Of a DNA stretch of 64,000 nucleotides, positions 27,663-41,389 are shown piece after piece. Both the position numbers and the translations under genes were made by a program. The notes beneath the pieces were generated by a model. That model worked only from the letters and a program-made list of their open reading frames with translations, did not search any database and had not been told where the DNA came from. The DNA comes from an uncultured delta proteobacterium (GTDB lineage Bacteria; Desulfobacterota; Desulfobacteria; Desulfobacterales; UBA2156), in contig CAVTQK010000015.1 in assembly GCA_963736855.1 (NCBI GenBank), positions 672,001 to 736,000 of the forward strand, in the 5' to 3' direction. Position 1 is the first letter of the stretch. Each line of letters begins with the position of its first letter.

Positions 27663-29665
27663 TTATTTCAACGCTGTTTTGGATTTCTGTTTCCTTGCCG
27701 GTGCCGGCGCAAATTGGATGGTGATGGTCGTCCCTCCGGACTCGATGCAGTCGCGCTCACTTTTACAGTGCCGACAGTCGGCGGTATCGCCTGGACAGAC
27801 GTCGGCGTCCAAGGGGATAAATCGGCAGCGATGGGATTCGACGCCAATGGCAAATTGGTAGCGCTCCGAGAAAATTTTAATGCGCAGAAGGTCGAATCCT
27901 TTTCCTCCCGCATTGAAGTCATAAGGCGTTTTTGTTGCATAACTGGCGGTGTCATAGGTGACGAAATGGTTTTGAAACACCATACGCTGTTTTTCCGCGG
28001 TCATGCCGATTCCGCAATCCGCAACCACAAATACCGGTCCTTCCTTTCGATCAGCTACGCGGATTTCTATTCGGCTCCCGTCCGGCGTGTTTTGAACTGC
28101 GTTACGAATGATACCGTCGACGGTTTTTTGCAGGACTTCCGGCGGGATCCAGATGGGAGGCATTTTTTCGTAATGTTCGACGATATGGCACTTTCGATGG
28201 CTAAAGAGAGGACGCGTCGCCTTGAGGCGCGCTTTTACAAACGTATCCAGTCGGATTCTTTCGGCTTTAGCCTCTTTAGGTCCGAACAGCGTATTGATCC
28301 GTTTTCTCAATCGCCCGACGAGCGTATCCACATCATCGCCTCTATCCGGATCTGCAGAAGCGGGATGCATTTCTTGTGTCTCGGTTTCCACAAGAGCCTC
28401 CAACTCATCCGCACAAGCGTCTAAAAGGGTCGACAGCATCATATGAGCCGTGTATCCTTTTTCTTCAACGATATCATCCAGCTCATATTGCATCTCAAGA
28501 AGACGGTCTAAATTTCTCTGGGCACGATCCAGGATTCGCCTCCAGCGCATATCCACGGCAGCGGCCTCGACCTTTTTTCTAGAAGACCCAAAGAGGCGCT
28601 TAAGATCGATACCGGTGTCTTGAGTTCATGAGAAAGGTGATGAATGATGTTATCCTTGGCGCTGTTGAGGCTTTTGACCTCTTTATAGGAGCGTTCTAGC
28701 TCCTCGTTGATCCTTGCATTTTCGATGGGGAAGGCCACGGTCCCGGCAATGGTGGAAAGAAGGGCCACATCATCCTGTGTGAAGATCCCGTCCCTTTTAT
28801 TAACGGCGCACAGTACACCGATCATTCGGTCCTGGATCCAGATGGGCACATCCAGCATGTTTCGGGTTTTGTAGCCGGAGAGTTTGTCTACGATGCTGTA
28901 AAAGTCGGGGTTGCTGTAAGGGTCGGGAGCAATAACGTGCTCTCCTGTTCGATACACTAGACCGGCGACTCCTTTGTTCAGAGGAAACCGGATTTCCTGA
29001 ATCCGTCGGATGGTTTCCATACTCTCATAATCGGCCACACGGAAAAAAAACTCATTTTTCGCCTTGTCGACCAAAATGACGGATGCGCCGTCGACGCCGA
29101 TGAGTTTGCGGACCTCTTGAACGACCACTGCAAGCCTTTCATCGAGAGATCGGAATTGGACCAGGGCCGTCGCCATGTGAAAAAGGGCTTGGCTGGTTTG
29201 GGCGGCCCGTTTTTCCGCGGTGATGTCCCGGGCGATTCCGCGAAAACCCACCTTGTTTCCTTTATCATCGAGAATGAGCTTGGCAGAGATTTCAAGAATG
29301 CGTGTTCGACCGTCTTTGCGGATGATCTCCCAGATGATGTTGGTAATCCCTTTGCCGGTGCGGAATACACGGTTGGTACTTTCAAAGGCCCTTTGAGCGT
29401 TTTCTGCATTCATGAATCTGCGGAAGTTCTGGCCCTGTATCTCCTTTTTTCTATATCCGAAAATACGGCATAGCGCATTGTTGAAAAACGTGAAGTAGCC
29501 CTTCAGATCGGTTTCATAGAAGGCATCCGCCACATCTTCGATAAAGACGCGGTATCGATCTTGATAGGTTCTCGAGTTTACAGGATTTCGACAGAAACCG
29601 TCTGCTGCATCCATAGATTTTTTAGGACGCGATCCGTGATCAGATTCTCTTTGAGTGTTGGCCAT
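27663..29665 (-). CDS. PAS-GAF histidine kinase, split by an apparent 1-nt deletion in an A run near 28572
   Basis: PAS (FNNALCRIFGY, RGIARDIT), GAF (KGVAG, IGVLCAVNK), SHELKTP; HATPase (RNAVQNT, DCGIGM, GKGFDL) in the next frame. Confidence 0.9.
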
Positions 29666-33736: not shown

Positions 33737-33853
33737 ATGATCGTTCGAAACATCAATGATCCGGAGGTTCTTGAAACCACTTATCCGGCCTACGGCGGTG
33801 CCGTTGCTCAAATGATTCTGGATTACCGGATTTTGAAGGAGATCGGATTTTTA
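33737..33853 (+). pseudogene. N-terminal remnant of a small, probably cupin-type gene
   Basis: AGGAGG RBS then MIVRNINDPEVLETTYPAYGGAVAQMILDYRILKEIGFL, which runs into the 3' end of the convergent gene; family recalled from memory. Confidence 0.4.
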
Positions 33854-33872
33854 AAGGAAAAAGACCCATGCG

Positions 33873-35348
33873 CTACGCATCTTTTTCCTTTTCTGCGGTC
33901 AGGGCGGCCAAGAATGGACCCGGCGGGTCGATGATGGGAACATCGGGTCGCAGGGAGGCTAACTCATTGAGAGATTCCCGGATCTCCTTGGAGCCTCGTT
34001 CAAATACTACCCGAACGGTTTCCAGGTCCTGTTTTACTTCTCCGGTGGAGAAGCGACCCGAAGTCTTTTCCAAATACGTTAGGACAAGTTCACGAATGGC
34101 CTGCCAGGTATCCCGGCGGCTTTGATTGTCCTTTGTCGTCAATGTGTCGATGTTAGTAAGTGCCCTGCGATGAAAGCGTTTGCGCAGGAGCTTCGTCATG
34201 ACAGCCAGCCACAGGATTATCAGTGCTACGGCAATGCCGGTGCCGATCAGGACGAGAAGGGAAAAGTCTCCCACCGCGCTGCTGGTGGCAAGCAGAGAGG
34301 TGCCGGCTGCAGCGCCGACCAGGCTGATGAACACTCCGATCAGTGTGTGCCTGAGAGTGGCCTTTCGGAATTGTCTTCGATAACTGAAGAGCGCTTCCAG
34401 AAAATGGCTCAATCTCTCGCTGTGGGTTTCCACGAATGTAGCCAGGTTGTCCAGGCGATATCGGGGGGCCTCCAGGACGGCTTTTTTCAGGTCCTCCCGC
34501 TGGTTTTCGAGATATTTCAAGAATCCAAGATCATGACTCTGAAGGTTTTGCGACGCCATCAGGGCTCGTGGAGAATAGGTCAGATGGATCATCGGAATGT
34601 CTTTTCGGCCCGTGATCTGGGAAAGGTTCCAACACAAGGTGCCGTAAACCCGAAGCAGGTCGTTTAAGGAGCCGCATTCATCGATACGGTTGAGAACGAA
34701 GAGGATCCTGTCCTCAAAAGTGCGGGAGGGGAGGGTATCCCGCAGGCTGGTATGGGTTTCCCGAACGGTGCCGGCTTTGTGGGGATCGAACAGGACCAGG
34801 ATCAAATCGGCCATTTGGGCCAGGTCGCCGATAACCTCCTGATAGTTGTATCCACGGTCCCGCTCCGTGATGCTGTCCAGCATACCGGGGGTGTCGATGA
34901 GGGCCAGCGTATTGAGGAAAGGGGATGCGACTCGTTTAAGACGAAAGTGCGCTGAAAATCGCTGCCCGTGTTTTTTCAGCGATTCAAAGGGAAATTCGGG
35001 ATCGTTGAGCAGATACTTGCCGTCTCGTTCTTCCGTGACACGAATGGGTCCGTCGTCGGGCTGCTTTTCATCCATTGTGATGACAGTGAAAGAGTCATCC
35101 GTAGGCGCTTGCCCGGTAGCCTGGATATCGGCTCCCAGGAATTCATTGATCAAAGCGGATTTGCCGGAGGAGTAATTACCTATTACCAGGACCAGAGGGC
35201 GCCATTTGATGCTCGTCTCCAGGGGTGCTTCACTATAAGAATAACGCAGAGCCACCGGTGTCAGGAGATCCCGAACCATCTCCTGGAGCTCGGAACGCAG
35301 GGCATTGATATAATTTTCACGATAAATCTGCATGGGCAAAGGTGGCAA
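33873..35348 (-). CDS. Dynamin-superfamily P-loop protein, EHD/sarcalumenin-like, with two C-terminal TM helices
   Basis: G1 GNYSSGKS, G2 APTDDSFT, G3 DTPG, G4 NRID; RGYNY, LFDPHK, LLRVYGTLCWNL. Confidence 0.88.
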   Translation of the reverse strand: MPPLPMQIYRENYINALRSELQEMVRDLLTPVALRYSYSEAPLETSIKWRPLVLVIGNYSSGKSALINEFLGADIQATGQAPTDDSFTVITMDEKQPDDGPIRVTEERDGKYLLNDPEFPFESLKKHGQRFSAHFRLKRVASPFLNTLALIDTPGMLDSITERDRGYNYQEVIGDLAQMADLILVLFDPHKAGTVRETHTSLRDTLPSRTFEDRILFVLNRIDECGSLNDLLRVYGTLCWNLSQITGRKDIPMIHLTYSPRALMASQNLQSHDLGFLKYLENQREDLKKAVLEAPRYRLDNLATFVETHSERLSHFLEALFSYRRQFRKATLRHTLIGVFISLVGAAAGTSLLATSSAVGDFSLLVLIGTGIAVALIILWLAVMTKLLRKRFHRRALTNIDTLTTKDNQSRRDTWQAIRELVLTYLEKTSGRFSTGEVKQDLETVRVVFERGSKEIRESLNELASLRPDVPIIDPPGPFLAALTAEKEKDA

Positions 35349-35723: not shown

Positions 35724-35800
35724 TGGTCGGGAAGACTGGATTTGAACCAGCGACCCCAGCGTCCCGAACGCTGTGCTCTACCAGACTGAGCCACTTCCCG
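35724..35800 (-). tRNA. tRNA-Pro(CGG)
   Basis: CGGGAAG acceptor stem, anticodon arm CAGCG-TTCGGGA-CGCTG, GGTTCAAATCC T arm, encoded CCA. Confidence 0.98.
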
Positions 35801-35801
35801 A

Positions 35802-36854
35802 CTATGTTTGCTGCTTATGCGTATCAATACTTTGGGAAAATGTATTTTCCCCGGTCAGATTCAGCCCCGGCATTCGGGATACCAGGGCGCGGGCGGTGTC
35901 GATATCGGTATGGCCATAGACCCTGAGCGTGGTGTCTTCTCTTGAGTGCCCAGCCATTTTCGACACGGTTTTCAAATCACCCTCTCTGATTAAATTCGTG
36001 ATGGCGGCGTGCCGGAGATCGTAAAGTCTCAATCTCCGGGTTATCCCCGCACGTTTCTTGGCCCGATTCCAGGCGGTTTTCAATGAGCCGATCCCCTTTC
36101 CCCGCCATTTGATGATCGGTCCGGATTCGGGCTTCCCGTCAGCTTCATGCCACATTCTGAGATGAGATTCAAGCTCTTTGTGTAAAGGCGGCATCCGATT
36201 TCTCGGACCTCCTTTTGAGGCGCCGTGGATGGTGATCGTCTGTCTGTTAAAGTCGATCCTATCCCATGTTAATCGGTTGAGTTCGGACAAGCCCGGTTTG
36301 GCCTCGGTATAATACGCCAGGAGAAGGGCGCGGCGGAATTGGGGGCTGACGCTGTTCCAGATCCGCTTGACCTCGTCAGGGGTTGGAGGCTGAATAATGG
36401 CGTCGTCCCGCTGGGGTTTGCGGTATCCGGCAACCGGATTCTTCAGGGGGTATTTACGGCTGACGGCCCAATTGAGGCTGGTTTGGATATCGGCCAGTTC
36501 CCTGCAGACGGTCACTTGTTTGACGGATTCCAGGCGTTTCGAAACGAAAAAATCCAGGGTGGAAGGATCCAAAGCGGCGGCGGGGATGTGTCCGATCAAC
36601 GGATTGATGACCGATTTGAATTTGTAATCCCAGGTTATGGATGTCATCTCTGCCACCGATCCGTATTTGGCGGTGACAAATAGATTAACAAGTTCGCTGA
36701 ACGTGGCCCCTGTTCGGTTGCGGGAGCCGGCTGATTTCAACGACGCATCGAAGGTCATGGCGTCGGTTTCGGTGGCGAAGTAGCGGCGTTTCCGTTTGCC
36801 TTTGATGTAATAGGCGGCAAACCATTTTCCGTGGCGGGTTTGATGGACGGACAT
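35802..36854 (-). CDS. Phage-type tyrosine integrase, possibly catalytically degenerate
   Basis: YDLRH, MAGH and VYGH present; box I reads YTEAKPG where TGxR is expected. Confidence 0.92.
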   Translation of the reverse strand: MSVHQTRHGKWFAAYYIKGKRKRRYFATETDAMTFDASLKSAGSRNRTGATFSELVNLFVTAKYGSVAEMTSITWDYKFKSVINPLIGHIPAAALDPSTLDFFVSKRLESVKQVTVCRELADIQTSLNWAVSRKYPLKNPVAGYRKPQRDDAIIQPPTPDEVKRIWNSVSPQFRRALLLAYYTEAKPGLSELNRLTWDRIDFNRQTITIHGASKGGPRNRMPPLHKELESHLRMWHEADGKPESGPIIKWRGKGIGSLKTAWNRAKKRAGITRRLRLYDLRHAAITNLIREGDLKTVSKMAGHSREDTTLRVYGHTDIDTARALVSRMPGLNLTGENTFSQSIDTHKQQT

Positions 36855-36863
36855 CAGTATTTA

Positions 36864-37331
36864 TTATCTTTTTCGCGTGGGAGGTTTTCCCCTATCGAAT
36901 TTTGCTTTGAGTTTTGATATCGAGTCAACGATTCCAGGCCGCAATAATCGCCGAAAAACGGGTTCTATATTATTATCTTCGGATGCAAATAAGCAGCTAA
37001 TTATTTCTTCTGTCAATTTGGCATCAAGGGTTCCCTCGAAGGTAATATCCGGATCATTGCTGATATCGTTTGCCGGAATCGGATATCTTTCCCAAAGTTG
37101 GACCCAAGTATCGAGAGGAAAGAATGCTTTATTGGAAGGAATGAAAAAGAGACTGAGTTCTTTGATACAGCCCGGCACCCGGGGCTTATTTTTCTGTTTT
37201 GAAGTGGTTTTAACAAAAAGGTAGGGTTCGTTGTTGCCGGGGGTGTTTAAAAGGATCAAATATTTATTGCCTATGACCCCGTTTTTAAAGACGAGATGTC
37301 TATGTTGAAAAATATCTCCACGCGAATGCAA
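36864..37331 (-). CDS. Hypothetical protein, candidate PemK/MazF-like toxin of a Panacea TA pair
   Basis: Starts directly after the antitoxin stop; RGDIF...KYLILLN...VKTTS pattern. Confidence 0.55.
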   Translation of the reverse strand: MHSRGDIFQHRHLVFKNGVIGNKYLILLNTPGNNEPYLFVKTTSKQKNKPRVPGCIKELSLFFIPSNKAFFPLDTWVQLWERYPIPANDISNDPDITFEGTLDAKLTEEIISCLFASEDNNIEPVFRRLLRPGIVDSISKLKAKFDRGKPPTRKR

Positions 37332-37892
37332 TCATTTAACTCCAAAAAGTTTATACATTTCCTCTCGCTCTTCAACGCGTTCCCTGATTTCTTCAGGAGA
37401 TAACCTAACAACATCACTATCAATTGCCAGCATGTAATCGATTTTTTGGTACTCTCCTTTTTCCCTTAGAGTTTTGTCCCAAGGTTCATTTTTTAGGTGT
37501 GTGGATTCAATCATTGCATCTGCTTTGGTGTCATAAAAGACGAAGGCGATTTCCTCTAAAAGCTGCATCTCTTTTTTAGTAAAATAGAGATCAGAAAATT
37601 TTTTTCGTGGCTGGATTTTTTGAAAGGTCTCTTCTGAAGACAAATCGTGAATGGATTCAATCAAATCCGGCTTCATTTTTCCGGAAATCTCCTCGTAGAG
37701 ATCTTTTGGTACCGGCCCCATTTTCCACGCGAAATACTCGAGGCCGGTAACAGATTTGCCGTTCTCCTTGAAGTGTCTGAAATCTAAGAAGTACAACAGC
37801 TTAAGAAGTTTTGTTTTGCCGCAATACAGGGTATTTTTGGCAAAGTAAATGATGGCGTTTATTAATTTTTCTCTATGATAGGTAATAATCAT
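37332..37892 (-). CDS. Panacea-domain antitoxin (DUF4065/SocA-like)
   Basis: TKLLKLLYFLDF, YFAWKMGPVP, STHLKNEPW. Confidence 0.9.
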   Translation of the reverse strand: MIITYHREKLINAIIYFAKNTLYCGKTKLLKLLYFLDFRHFKENGKSVTGLEYFAWKMGPVPKDLYEEISGKMKPDLIESIHDLSSEETFQKIQPRKKFSDLYFTKKEMQLLEEIAFVFYDTKADAMIESTHLKNEPWDKTLREKGEYQKIDYMLAIDSDVVRLSPEEIRERVEEREEMYKLFGVK

Positions 37893-37986
37893 ATTAATAT
37901 CTTAGTACGCAAGTGTCAGAAAGTCAAACTCGGCATTGAACGGTCCAGCGCCCGTCTTTGCGGAGATAAACGGCCATGGTCGGCAA

Positions 37987-38565
37987 TCAGTTGGAAATGC
38001 ATTTAAAATATGTTCCGACAATTTTCCAGGTGCCGCCGGCATAAGTGCTTCCGACCCAGTCGGAGCCTTCGAAAATCCTGGAGGCGCTTCCACCGACATT
38101 TTCAACCGAAGTTATAATATTCGTAAAACCGCCCTTGTCGCCGGATAGGGAAATGAAGACCTGAAGCAATTTACAGGCTCCTCCGCCGGATACCCTTCCG
38201 GACACCTTGATCCGGTCTTCGCCTTCTTTGGTTACGCTGATGGAGGAGACCTGATAATCGGCCGCTGCTTTGGCTTTTTCGGCTTCGATCCTCCGAGTCT
38301 GCCGATTCGTTTCTATTTCCTTCATGGAATCCTTATATCGTTCGGTGGCTTTTTCGAGTTTGTCTTTGACGGTTTCGGGCTTTTGCGGAGTATGTGCGGC
38401 TTCGCCCTGTTCCTGGATGTTTTCGGCCTCGGGCGGCGGGGCAGTGTTGGTGACGTGCTTTACTCCGTCCTTATCGGTCCAAATATAGATTTGAGCGAGA
38501 GAGACGGATGGAAATGCAATTGAAATGAGGGATGCTATGAAAAATGCTATAAGTTTGGTTTTCAT
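37987..38565 (-). CDS. Exported DUF4124-domain protein
   Basis: Signal peptide, then QIYIWTDKDGVKHVTNTAPP, a coiled coil and a beta-rich C-domain. Confidence 0.85.
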   Translation of the reverse strand: MKTKLIAFFIASLISIAFPSVSLAQIYIWTDKDGVKHVTNTAPPPEAENIQEQGEAAHTPQKPETVKDKLEKATERYKDSMKEIETNRQTRRIEAEKAKAAADYQVSSISVTKEGEDRIKVSGRVSGGGACKLLQVFISLSGDKGGFTNIITSVENVGGSASRIFEGSDWVGSTYAGGTWKIVGTYFKCISN

Positions 38566-38583
38566 GGCGATGCCTCCGTTTGG

Positions 38584-39135
38584 TCATCTATAATTTGTAA
38601 GCCCTTCCCTTGTGGTCCATAATTTTATCCCTTCATAAACGAATTGGGTTTCTCCCCCAAACATACCAGGATGTTCTAGGACGGTCACGGTTATCCCGCT
38701 TTTGATATTAAAGCATTTATTGGATTTAAAGTAGCTGTCGAAACTACCTCGATCTTTTGCTGCTATGAAATGAATCAAATCGTCGAGCCATTCTTTTGTC
38801 CGGCATGCGACACAGTTTTCGCTTGTCGTGGCGATTCCTGTCCCGGAAGGATCGATTCTTTTTTTGGGAGGTTCATAAGAACGAATTGCTTTTTTCGGTT
38901 CCGTAATGGGAAACGTTTCATGTTTTTCTCGAAGGATGTTTTTGACGGTGCTTTTCGGAATGCACTTTTCCTTGCCGTCATGCCAAAAGCATATGTTGTC
39001 CCCGTCTTTCCAGTGGTATTTCGTTTCATAGCTCGTCCCGTCTTCAAGGATGATCGCATACTGGGCAAGGACATGTGGCGCATATCCGATGAGGAAAAAA
39101 ACCGTGGCAATAAAGATTCTACTTTTTATTTTCAT
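38584..39135 (-). CDS. Hypothetical exported protein
   Basis: Signal peptide, two small domains joined by a Pro/Lys linker; ATGA region with GGA RBS. Confidence 0.7.
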   Translation of the reverse strand: MKIKSRIFIATVFFLIGYAPHVLAQYAIILEDGTSYETKYHWKDGDNICFWHDGKEKCIPKSTVKNILREKHETFPITEPKKAIRSYEPPKKRIDPSGTGIATTSENCVACRTKEWLDDLIHFIAAKDRGSFDSYFKSNKCFNIKSGITVTVLEHPGMFGGETQFVYEGIKLWTTREGLTNYR

Positions 39136-39571
39136 GACCTATCCTTTCCACGGACCCACCAAGATCCTTGCCCTCCAGGGTTGATGATTTGCGCGGATGA
39201 TGGCATGGCGTCTCGCCGTTTTCCCTTCGATCGAAAGGAGATTTCCGGCGATTAGGATAGCGCCGACAATAAGGATCTTTCCGATATTTCCATACATGAT
39301 CTCTTTGATGGGTTCCAGGTTGAGTATGGCGCCTACATTTTCAGCCAGTTTATGTAGAGATCCAGGGTATCTCAGGCCGATAAGAAATTTATGTTAGGGA
39401 GATTTTATACAAGAAAGAGTATAAATCAATGGTAAAATTCGTCAGAATGGAAGAAAAGGGGTGAGAATTGAAGCTTTTCCAGGCTTCCATACATTTTACC
39501 TGTGAAATTAAATTCAAAGGAATTACAGAAACTTAAAGGCGAGTGGTACTAAAATCCCGACCGATGTTGAA

Positions 39572-39629: not shown

Positions 39630-41389
<1,760 letters not shown>

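What the first reader, a model, noticed from the sequence alone, without database searches (positions are those of the whole stretch)
33873..35348. Bacterial EHD/sarcalumenin-like membrane-remodelling candidate
Seen: PLVLVIGNYSSGKS, GQAPTDDSF, FESLKKHGQRF, IDTPGML, RGYNY, ILVLFDPHK, VLNRID and LLRVYGTLCWNL, followed by a helical region and a two-helix TM hairpin. Known (recalled, not aligned): eukaryotic EHD proteins have colinear motifs PMVLLVGQYSTGKT, GPEPTTDSF, IDTPGIL, RGYDF, LLFDAHK, VLNKAD and LMRVYGALMWSL, and are ATP-driven membrane tubulators. Inference: a prokaryotic member of the EHD branch, distinct from BDLP/DynA types, with a TM anchor in place of the EH domain. It is a single gene without the usual paired dynamin.
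Basis: partly seen in the sequence, partly recalled or inferred. Interest (0 to 1): 0.75.

Follow-up and report, generated by a model that had tools for sequence, protein, structure and literature searches.

The report
Bacterial membrane-anchored EHD/MfnL-type dynamin
This sulfate-reducer-type bacterium encodes a dynamin-family enzyme, probably held in the inner membrane by a two-helix hairpin, that is a real relative of the eukaryotic membrane-shaping EHD proteins; two papers have already noted such bacterial proteins, but none has been tested experimentally.

Summary
Confirmed: an intact gene (33873-35333, minus strand, 486 aa) carries every quoted motif. Its best solved relatives are EHD2/EHD4 (E 2e-28 versus 6e-5 for the best bacterial dynamin; structural Z 28 versus 16 for BDLP), and trees join it with EHD against BDLP-type proteins (98/99). 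Its nearest family, however, is MfnL, typified by trypanosome TbMfnL (33% over 394 aa, similarity running through the membrane hairpin). Bacterial two-TM relatives of EHD/sarcalumenin were reported in 2020 (PMC7016017) and bacterial MfnL in a preprint (10.1101/2023.06.28.546890); this scan also found the family before on other DNA. Correction: the hairpin sits at the helical-domain tip, where EHD has its lipid-inserting loop, not in place of the EH domain, which is simply absent. The EHD dimer tryptophan is invariant; G4 reads NRID, so ATP use is open. Present in 85 of 151 order genomes, mostly single copy, with no fixed neighbour or partner dynamin. Likely an NTP-cycling inner-membrane shaping scaffold (inferred). 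Whether this clade is sister to MfnL or to EHD is unresolved. New, untested member of a known kind.

The parts
33873..35333 (-). Gene for a 486-aa EHD/MfnL-type dynamin-superfamily NTPase (alternative TTG start at 35348)
   Evidence: intact in a related strain
35244..35333 (-). N-terminal helix (residues 1-30), predicted part of the composite helical domain as in EHD
   Evidence: model helix; aligned to EHD4 from residue 22
35157..35180 (-). G1/P-loop GNYSSGKS (52-59); keeps the serine tied to cation-assisted hydrolysis in dynamins
   Evidence: role of the serine from PMC5084822 passages
35088..35114 (-). G2/switch I GQAPTDDSF (74-82)
34965..35006 (-). Loop equivalent to the EHD KPF loop (110-123; FPF here; P 100%, F 92% in 26 clade representatives)
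   Evidence: KPF loop role from PMC9741607 passages
34884..34895 (-). G3 DTPG (147-150)
34680..34691 (-). G4 variant NRID (215-218): Arg for the usual Lys in 26 of 26 clade representatives, followed by Glu, not Met
34614..34658 (-). Helix alpha-6 equivalent (226-240) with Trp235, aligned to the EHD dimer-interface tryptophan W238
   Evidence: interface-1 from PMC9741607 passages
34287..34343 (-). Predicted TM helix 1 (331-349), Gly/Ala/Ser-rich
   Evidence: hydropathy; model
34200..34256 (-). Predicted TM helix 2 (360-378), followed by a basic stretch
   Evidence: hydropathy; model
33951..34181 (-). Helices returning from the membrane to complete the helical domain (385-461); no EH domain follows
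   Evidence: no EH, EHD_N or DUF5600 hit at E<=0.1

Best explanation
A cytoplasm-facing, inner-membrane-anchored dynamin-superfamily NTPase of a bacterial clade (G1 GNYS, G4 NRxD) that belongs with or beside the MfnL family, inside a wider EHD/MfnL branch. Shown here: sequence, predicted fold, family placement, distribution. Inferred mechanism, by analogy to EHD filaments and TbMfnL: the G domain and a composite helical domain face the cytoplasm; the TM hairpin at the helical tip fixes the protein in the inner membrane; it dimerises through helix alpha-6 (Trp235), polymerises through the PF loop and nucleotide-loaded G-G contacts into a scaffold that bends, tubulates or stabilises curved membrane (folds, necks, repair sites); slow, assembly-stimulated NTP hydrolysis resets it. 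It works as a homo-oligomer, without a partner dynamin, as an accessory housekeeping factor. Nucleotide: GTP somewhat likelier than ATP (about 55:45, judgement), since both EHD features tied to ATP choice are missing.
For: EHD2/EHD4 are the top sequence hits (profile E 4e-62 versus 3e-9 for the next) and top fold hits (ranks 1-5; EHD4 Z 28.1, rmsd 5.0, 372 aligned; mitofusin 20.1, IniA 17.8, BDLP 15.8; model pLDDT 91.6). MfnL link: P0279, named T. brucei gambiense, has K141 in G1 as the paper's TbMfnL does; 33% identity over 394 aa, E 6e-45; profile probability 100 full length, 99.3 after the G domain, 93.2 after the hairpin. Trp235 in 26/26 clade, 53/53 MfnL, 12/12 EHD representatives, not among the three commonest residues in 15 BDLP-type rows; YGxLxW in 120 of 120 close relatives. 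Two hydrophobic segments in 108 of 120 close relatives, none in 118 of 120 EHDs. TbMfnL needs its G1 lysine and its TMs to increase membrane branching on overexpression. 85 of 151 order genomes; another BDLP-type gene in only 2 of 99 loci, both on the opposite strand.
Against: No experiment on any bacterial member was found in the searches listed. Sequence similarity to EHD after the G domain is not detectable by profile-profile comparison (probability 0.3), so helical-domain equivalence rests on the structure alignment and MAFFT. Loss of TbMfnL gave no phenotype in the preprint, so its function is itself soft. The gene is missing from 66 of 151 order genomes searched and neighbours give no functional clue. 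The G4 Lys-to-Arg change could alter or weaken nucleotide use. Clade + MfnL has only 80/52 to 91/85 support and AU tests reject none of three arrangements.
Confidence: 0.62

Rival explanations
1. The clade is the direct bacterial sister of EHD and an ATP-specific tubulator.
For: A tree forced to join this clade with EHD is not rejected (p-AU 0.615, lnL 3.4 higher than the free search; p-AU 0.52 under LG+F+G4). Five consensus sites are shared with EHD against MfnL, and FDPHK resembles EHD FDAHK.
Against: Fourteen consensus sites are shared with MfnL against EHD, five by MfnL and EHD against this clade; bit scores favour MfnL; free trees put it with MfnL with moderate support. The EH-domain tail and the Met after G4, named as the ATP determinants, are absent, though that Met is in only 3 of 12 EHD rows.
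Confidence: 0.15
2. A membrane fusion, tethering or repair factor working like mitofusin/BDLP/DynA through trans G-domain contacts, possibly limiting phage or antibiotic damage.
For: A TM hairpin at the helical tip is the layout of atlastin, mitofusin and BDLP; mitofusins are the next fold hits (Z about 20); TbMfnL overexpression raises network connectivity; weak PADLOC LeoA/LeoBC hits, E 2e-8 and 5e-6.
Against: The helical domain is EHD-short; DynA and LeoA models score far below cut-off (14 of 1600; 13 of 325 bits); neighbours are housekeeping genes; no hit in plasmids or, beyond two unrelated dynamin-like proteins, in viral contigs; the adjacent integrase island is separate.
Confidence: 0.17
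3. A static scaffold or weak enzyme that organises membrane proteins without reshaping the bilayer.
For: Non-canonical G4 fixed in the clade; patchy presence; no TbMfnL knockout phenotype.
Against: G1, G2, G3 and the catalytic P-loop serine are conserved across the clade; the G1 lysine is required in TbMfnL.
Confidence: 0.06

Closest known systems
MfnL family: TbMfnL (Tb927.7.2410) and its bacterial homologues (Morel et al., bioRxiv 10.1101/2023.06.28.546890)
   Same: G domain + two adjacent C-proximal TMs + C-terminal helices; similarity along the whole length; shared alpha-6 tryptophan; no EH domain; stand-alone.
   Different: G1 GNYS versus GNHS, G4 NRxD versus NKxD, no targeting presequence; forms its own clade (100/100). 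The preprint's main text names PVC, Proteobacteria and Myxococcales examples, never 'Desulfo' or 'EHD'; its supplement was not available.
Bacterial two-TM homologues of EHD/sarcalumenin (Schaffer et al. 2020, PMC7016017; author name from the scan's notes)
   Same: [quoted passage not shown]
   Different: Three sentences and a stylised tree, no experiments; which bacterial clade they sampled could not be seen (stored supplement is cut; 0 hits for 'Desulfo'). I found at least three bacterial two-TM groups (GNY, GNH, and the L259-L261 type).
Eukaryotic EHD1-4/RME-1 ATPases (2qpt, 4cid, 5mtv, 7sox, 9rbu)
   Same: Closest solved fold and sequence; colinear G1-G4, KPF-like loop, alpha-6 Trp, N-terminal helix joining a short helical domain.
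   Different: No EH domain, no EHD_N or DUF5600 hit; integral hairpin in place of the peripheral lipid-inserting loop; NRID-E in place of NKAD-M; ATP use untested.
BDLP, DynA, LeoA, C. jejuni DLP1/2, IniA, SynDLP
   Same: Bacterial dynamin-superfamily G domain, membrane site at the helical tip.
   Different: Far weaker sequence and fold scores, separate side of the tree, 486 aa versus about 560-860 aa for the BDLP-type ORFs, no tandem partner.

Membership tests
Dynamin superfamily | Extended G domain with G1-G4 and a helical bundle | tested here: met
   PF00350 66.5 bits over cut-off 27; fold hits; G4 is the variant NRID
Dynamin superfamily | Assembly-stimulated NTP hydrolysis and membrane remodelling | not testable with these tools
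   needs biochemistry
MfnL family | G domain followed by two consecutive C-terminal TMs | tested here: met
   hydropathy and model; 108 of 120 close relatives
MfnL family | Similarity to TbMfnL-type proteins along the whole sequence, not only the G domain | tested here: met
   33% over 394 aa; profile probability 99.3 post-G-domain, 93.2 post-hairpin
MfnL family | Branches within or as sister to the MfnL clade | tested here: inconclusive
   sister at 91/85 and 90/87, nested at weak support; alternatives not rejected
MfnL family | Integral inner-membrane protein facing cytoplasm/matrix | not testable with these tools
   basic flanks on both sides of the hairpin fit this; not measured
EHD proteins (strict) | EH domain | tested here: not met
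   no EH hit; control EHD P0478 hits EH, EHD_N, DUF5600; alignment ends before it
EHD proteins (strict) | EHD_N and DUF5600 helical-domain profiles | tested here: not met
   none at E<=0.1; none in 100 representatives at E<=1e-5
EHD proteins (strict) | Peripheral lipid-inserting loop at the helical tip | tested here: not met
   replaced by a hydrophobic hairpin
EHD proteins (strict) | Family-specific alpha-6 dimer tryptophan and KPF-type loop (sequence signature) | tested here: met
   W235 26/26; PF 100%/92%; the K of KPF is not kept
EHD proteins (strict) | ATP rather than GTP as substrate | not testable with these tools
   the two stated determinants are absent
EHD/MfnL branch (wide) | Groups with EHD to the exclusion of BDLP-type bacterial dynamins | tested here: met
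   98/99, 100/100, SH-aLRT 100; outgroup only BDLP-type, on long branches; classical dynamins, mitofusins and atlastins not in the tree
BDLP/DynA/LeoA | Curated family score and tandem partner gene | tested here: not met
   DynA 14.3 of 1600, LeoA 12.9 of 325 bits; neighbour DLP in 2 of 99 loci, opposite strand
Sarcalumenin | Signal peptide, lumenal location, sarcalumenin clade | not tested
   no sarcalumenin sequence was obtained; the N-terminus is a conserved amphipathic helix in the model

The most novel reading that the evidence does not exclude
The two published families are one lineage, and these bacterial proteins already use the EHD-specific assembly mode (alpha-6 dimer plus PF-loop filament) to tubulate or stabilise curved inner membrane. 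Eukaryotic EHD then arose by exchanging an integral TM hairpin for a peripheral lipid-inserting loop at the same helical tip and adding an EH domain, while TbMfnL, published as mitofusin-like, is really a mitochondrial EHD-type protein (its best PDB hits are EHD2/EHD4, E 4e-30). A search for papers holding both 'MfnL' and 'EHD' gave 0.
Probability: 0.35. Interest if true: 0.65.

Novelty: new member of a known kind. Interest (0 to 1): 0.35.

Why it matters
EHD ATPases are treated as eukaryotic; a 2026 review of the field has no hit for 'prokaryot' and one unrelated hit for 'bacteria' (PMC13282721, term search). A compact, single-gene bacterial form, with a cultured carrier (Desulfosarcina widdelii PP31, 63% identity), makes three questions testable: whether the EHD dimer and filament mode predates eukaryotes, when ATP specificity arose, and what the poorly understood TbMfnL does mechanically. 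The existence of the family is not news; the residue-level map (hairpin at the lipid-binding tip, conserved dimer tryptophan, NRxD G4) and the MfnL-EHD link are the small additions.

Tried and rejected
Homodimer prediction (residues 3-465 of the alignment's first row, two copies): no support and no evidence against, score 0.34 against a mark of 0.42; not used as evidence. Expression: no RNA holder listed. Mobile or defence cargo: rejected; no plasmid match, viral scan gave 2 unrelated dynamin-like ORFs of 29 pattern hits, and the neighbouring integrase island has an empty site in a related strain that keeps the gene. Operon with iorAB-paaK downstream: shared only with the closest relative L005 among 80 loci. 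Partner dynamin: 2 of 99 loci (flanks up to 6 kb, many cut by contig ends). Promoter and terminator scan: counts near shuffle level (3 versus 2.0; 5 versus 2.8). The 69-row mixture-model tree did not finish; only its quick version is cited. AU tests did not resolve the order among this clade, MfnL, EHD and the C3 family. A motif scan for classical dynamins in viral contigs found none, so they are missing from the outgroup. ESM Atlas: 27 of 30 hits Dynamin_N clusters, mostly bacterial, one nematode DUF5600 cluster at 0.90; lead only. Paper searches with nothing further on a bacterial EHD.

Full report
Observation. The ORF exists at 33873-35348 on the minus strand; the ATG at 35333 (486 aa) is the likelier start, and residues are numbered from it. 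Pfam gives Dynamin_N (E 3.9e-18) and no EH, EHD_N or DUF5600 match at E up to 0.1, whereas a control EHD hits all three. A contig from a related strain spans the gene with 18 substitutions and no gap.

Relation to EHD. Among solved structures the six best sequence hits are EHD2 and EHD4 (E 1.7e-28 to 2e-25); the next is a C. jejuni dynamin-like protein at 6.4e-5. A 55-sequence profile widens the gap to 4e-62 against 3e-9 and runs to EHD2 residue 318. The AlphaFold model (pLDDT 91.6, pTM 0.86) ranks five EHD structures first in Foldseek; VIA-align gives EHD4 Z 28.1 (rmsd 5.0, 372 aligned, model 11-462 on EHD4 22-406), mitofusin 20.1, IniA 17.8, BDLP 15.8. DynA and LeoA models score 14 of 1600 and 13 of 325 bits. 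Trees of G-domain regions join this protein, MfnL and EHD against BDLP-type proteins at 98/99 (42 rows) and, with two further groups, 100/100 (47 rows). The outgroup is BDLP-type only and lies on long branches.

Nearest family. The search of 50%-identity representatives returned 1455 proteins at E up to 0.001; the best 150 split into a GNYS..NRxD group (with the window) and a GNHS..NKxD group that includes long proteins with presequence-like N-termini. Searching with one of these named them as trypanosomatid, stramenopile and dinoflagellate proteins. P0279 (T. brucei gambiense) has Lys141 in its P-loop, matching the K141 of TbMfnL in bioRxiv 10.1101/2023.06.28.546890 (abstract, sections 5, 12, first part of 11 and passages read; supplements not available). 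[quoted passage not shown] The window protein matches P0279 at 33% over 394 aa. Median G-domain bit scores are 321 to its own clade, 172 to MfnL, 106 to EHD, 36 to BDLP-type rows (119 rows kept of 510 after redundancy filtering). Profile comparison beyond the G domain is strong to MfnL (99.3; 93.2 after the hairpin) and absent to EHD (0.3).

Unresolved branching. The window's clade is solid (100/100; it drops to 67/22 when the related L259-L261 group is added, which joins it at 95/89). Clade plus MfnL gets 80/52, 91/85 and 90/87. Forcing clade plus EHD is not rejected and even scores 3.4 log units better under the mixture model (p-AU 0.615); under LG+F+G4 none of three arrangements is rejected (0.56, 0.52, 0.34). 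Consensus sites favour MfnL 14 to 5 to 5. So: MfnL-type by architecture and overall similarity, position relative to EHD open.

Anatomy. PMC9741607 (passages) describes the EHD-specific dimer through helix alpha-6 and W238, the KPF loop as second interface, and the N323-M324-F325 loop at the helical tip as membrane insertion site. In one search, W235 aligns with W238 of EHD2 (allowing for a 7-residue offset between the 550- and 543-residue chains; my inference). It is kept in 26 of 26 clade, 53 of 53 MfnL and 12 of 12 EHD rows and in 120 of 120 close relatives. The PF of the KPF loop is kept, the K is not. In the joint alignment the hydrophobic hairpin (331-349, 360-378) falls where EHDs have MPxxFGKxxK, and the alignment resumes after it; the structural match likewise continues to EHD4 residue 406. 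The hairpin thus replaces the lipid-binding tip, not the EH domain, which is simply absent. Basic residues flank both sides, fitting a hairpin with both ends in the cytoplasm (inference). G4 reads NRIDEC in 109 and NRVDEC in 3 of 120 close relatives (8 not parsed). PMC5084822 (passages) ties EHD's ATP use to the EH-domain tail and a Met after G4; neither is present, though the Met is in only 3 of 12 EHD rows, so the nucleotide cannot be called.

Distribution and context. 85 of 151 genomes of the order match (own genome included; three are weak hits to a different two-TM family and a few are fragments), and 19 of 401 across the phylum. Neighbours vary: the commonest neighbour cluster is in 21 of 81 loci and looks like mixed signalling proteins; in a second lineage the gene lies just upstream of ruv genes (ruvA in 11 of 18 fetched loci, yebC in 8). 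Another BDLP-type gene lies nearby in 2 of 99 loci, on the opposite strand, with the genome's own tandem pair as positive control. This fits a vertically kept accessory gene, not an island.

Prior art. [quoted passage not shown] The paper came up in my search and in the scan's earlier notes, where five follow-ups on other genomes reached the same family. This lowered my novelty estimate. The MfnL preprint never mentions EHD, although TbMfnL's best PDB hits are EHD2 and EHD4, and no paper in the library holds both terms; subscription papers are not covered.

Mechanism and verdict. Most likely a homo-oligomeric, NTP-cycling scaffold on the cytoplasmic face of the inner membrane that bends or stabilises curved membrane in the EHD manner (0.62; every mechanistic step is inferred). 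Rivals: fusion or repair (0.17), true ATP-using EHD sister (0.15), static scaffold (0.06). It works like EHD/TbMfnL by inference; it is not an EHD in the strict sense; it is a new, untested member of a published kind. Interest 0.35.

Noticed in passing
window 35796-39554: Small island at the 5' end of tRNA-Pro (35724-35800): tyrosine integrase, a 155-aa ORF with no Pfam, NCBIfam or PADLOC hit next to a Panacea/SocA antitoxin gene (possible toxin-antitoxin pair), a DUF4124 protein and one more ORF. A related strain joins 35795 to 39555.
   Followed up: partly
window 39630-40920 (-): An adenylosuccinate-synthetase-like gene (name recalled from the sequence) is split over two frames (215 + 277 aa) but is one 430-aa ORF in L005; real frameshift or assembly error not settled.
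   Followed up: no
window 27663-29665 (-): A PAS/GAF sensor-kinase-like gene is split in two ORFs; contigs of three runs show one extra base behind 28572, so probably an assembly indel.
   Followed up: partly
window 33737-33868 (+): A 44-codon gene stub behind a strong ribosome-binding site runs into the finding's stop codon; single copy in the genome; looks like the start of a cupin-type protein (recalled, not tested).
   Followed up: partly
L259:3203-4783, L260:3348-4901, L261:2881-4518: A further bacterial two-TM family of the same branch, with G4 degenerated to NQID; joins the window's clade at 95/89 on a long branch.
   Followed up: partly
L093-L172 (e.g. L096:868-2691): A third, apparently eukaryotic family of the branch ('C3'), with hydrophobic C-terminal segments and without the alpha-6 tryptophan; only Dynamin_N and MMR_HSR1 in Pfam; found with a recalled motif.
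   Followed up: partly
L089:1495-2739 (-): A giant-virus MAG contig encodes a canonical EHD G domain and helical domain (EHD_N, DUF5600) of about 400 aa without an EH domain.
   Followed up: no
L241-L253: In a lineage of 2-2.6 Mb genomes the gene sits directly upstream of yebC-ruvC-ruvA-ruvB; in five Desulfobacterales loci it precedes recX. Both neighbours concern DNA repair; may be shared ancestry only.
   Followed up: partly
G000:C21:594093-597838 and 467646: The same genome also holds an ordinary tandem pair of dynamin-like genes and a third single one, all barely similar to the finding.
   Followed up: partly
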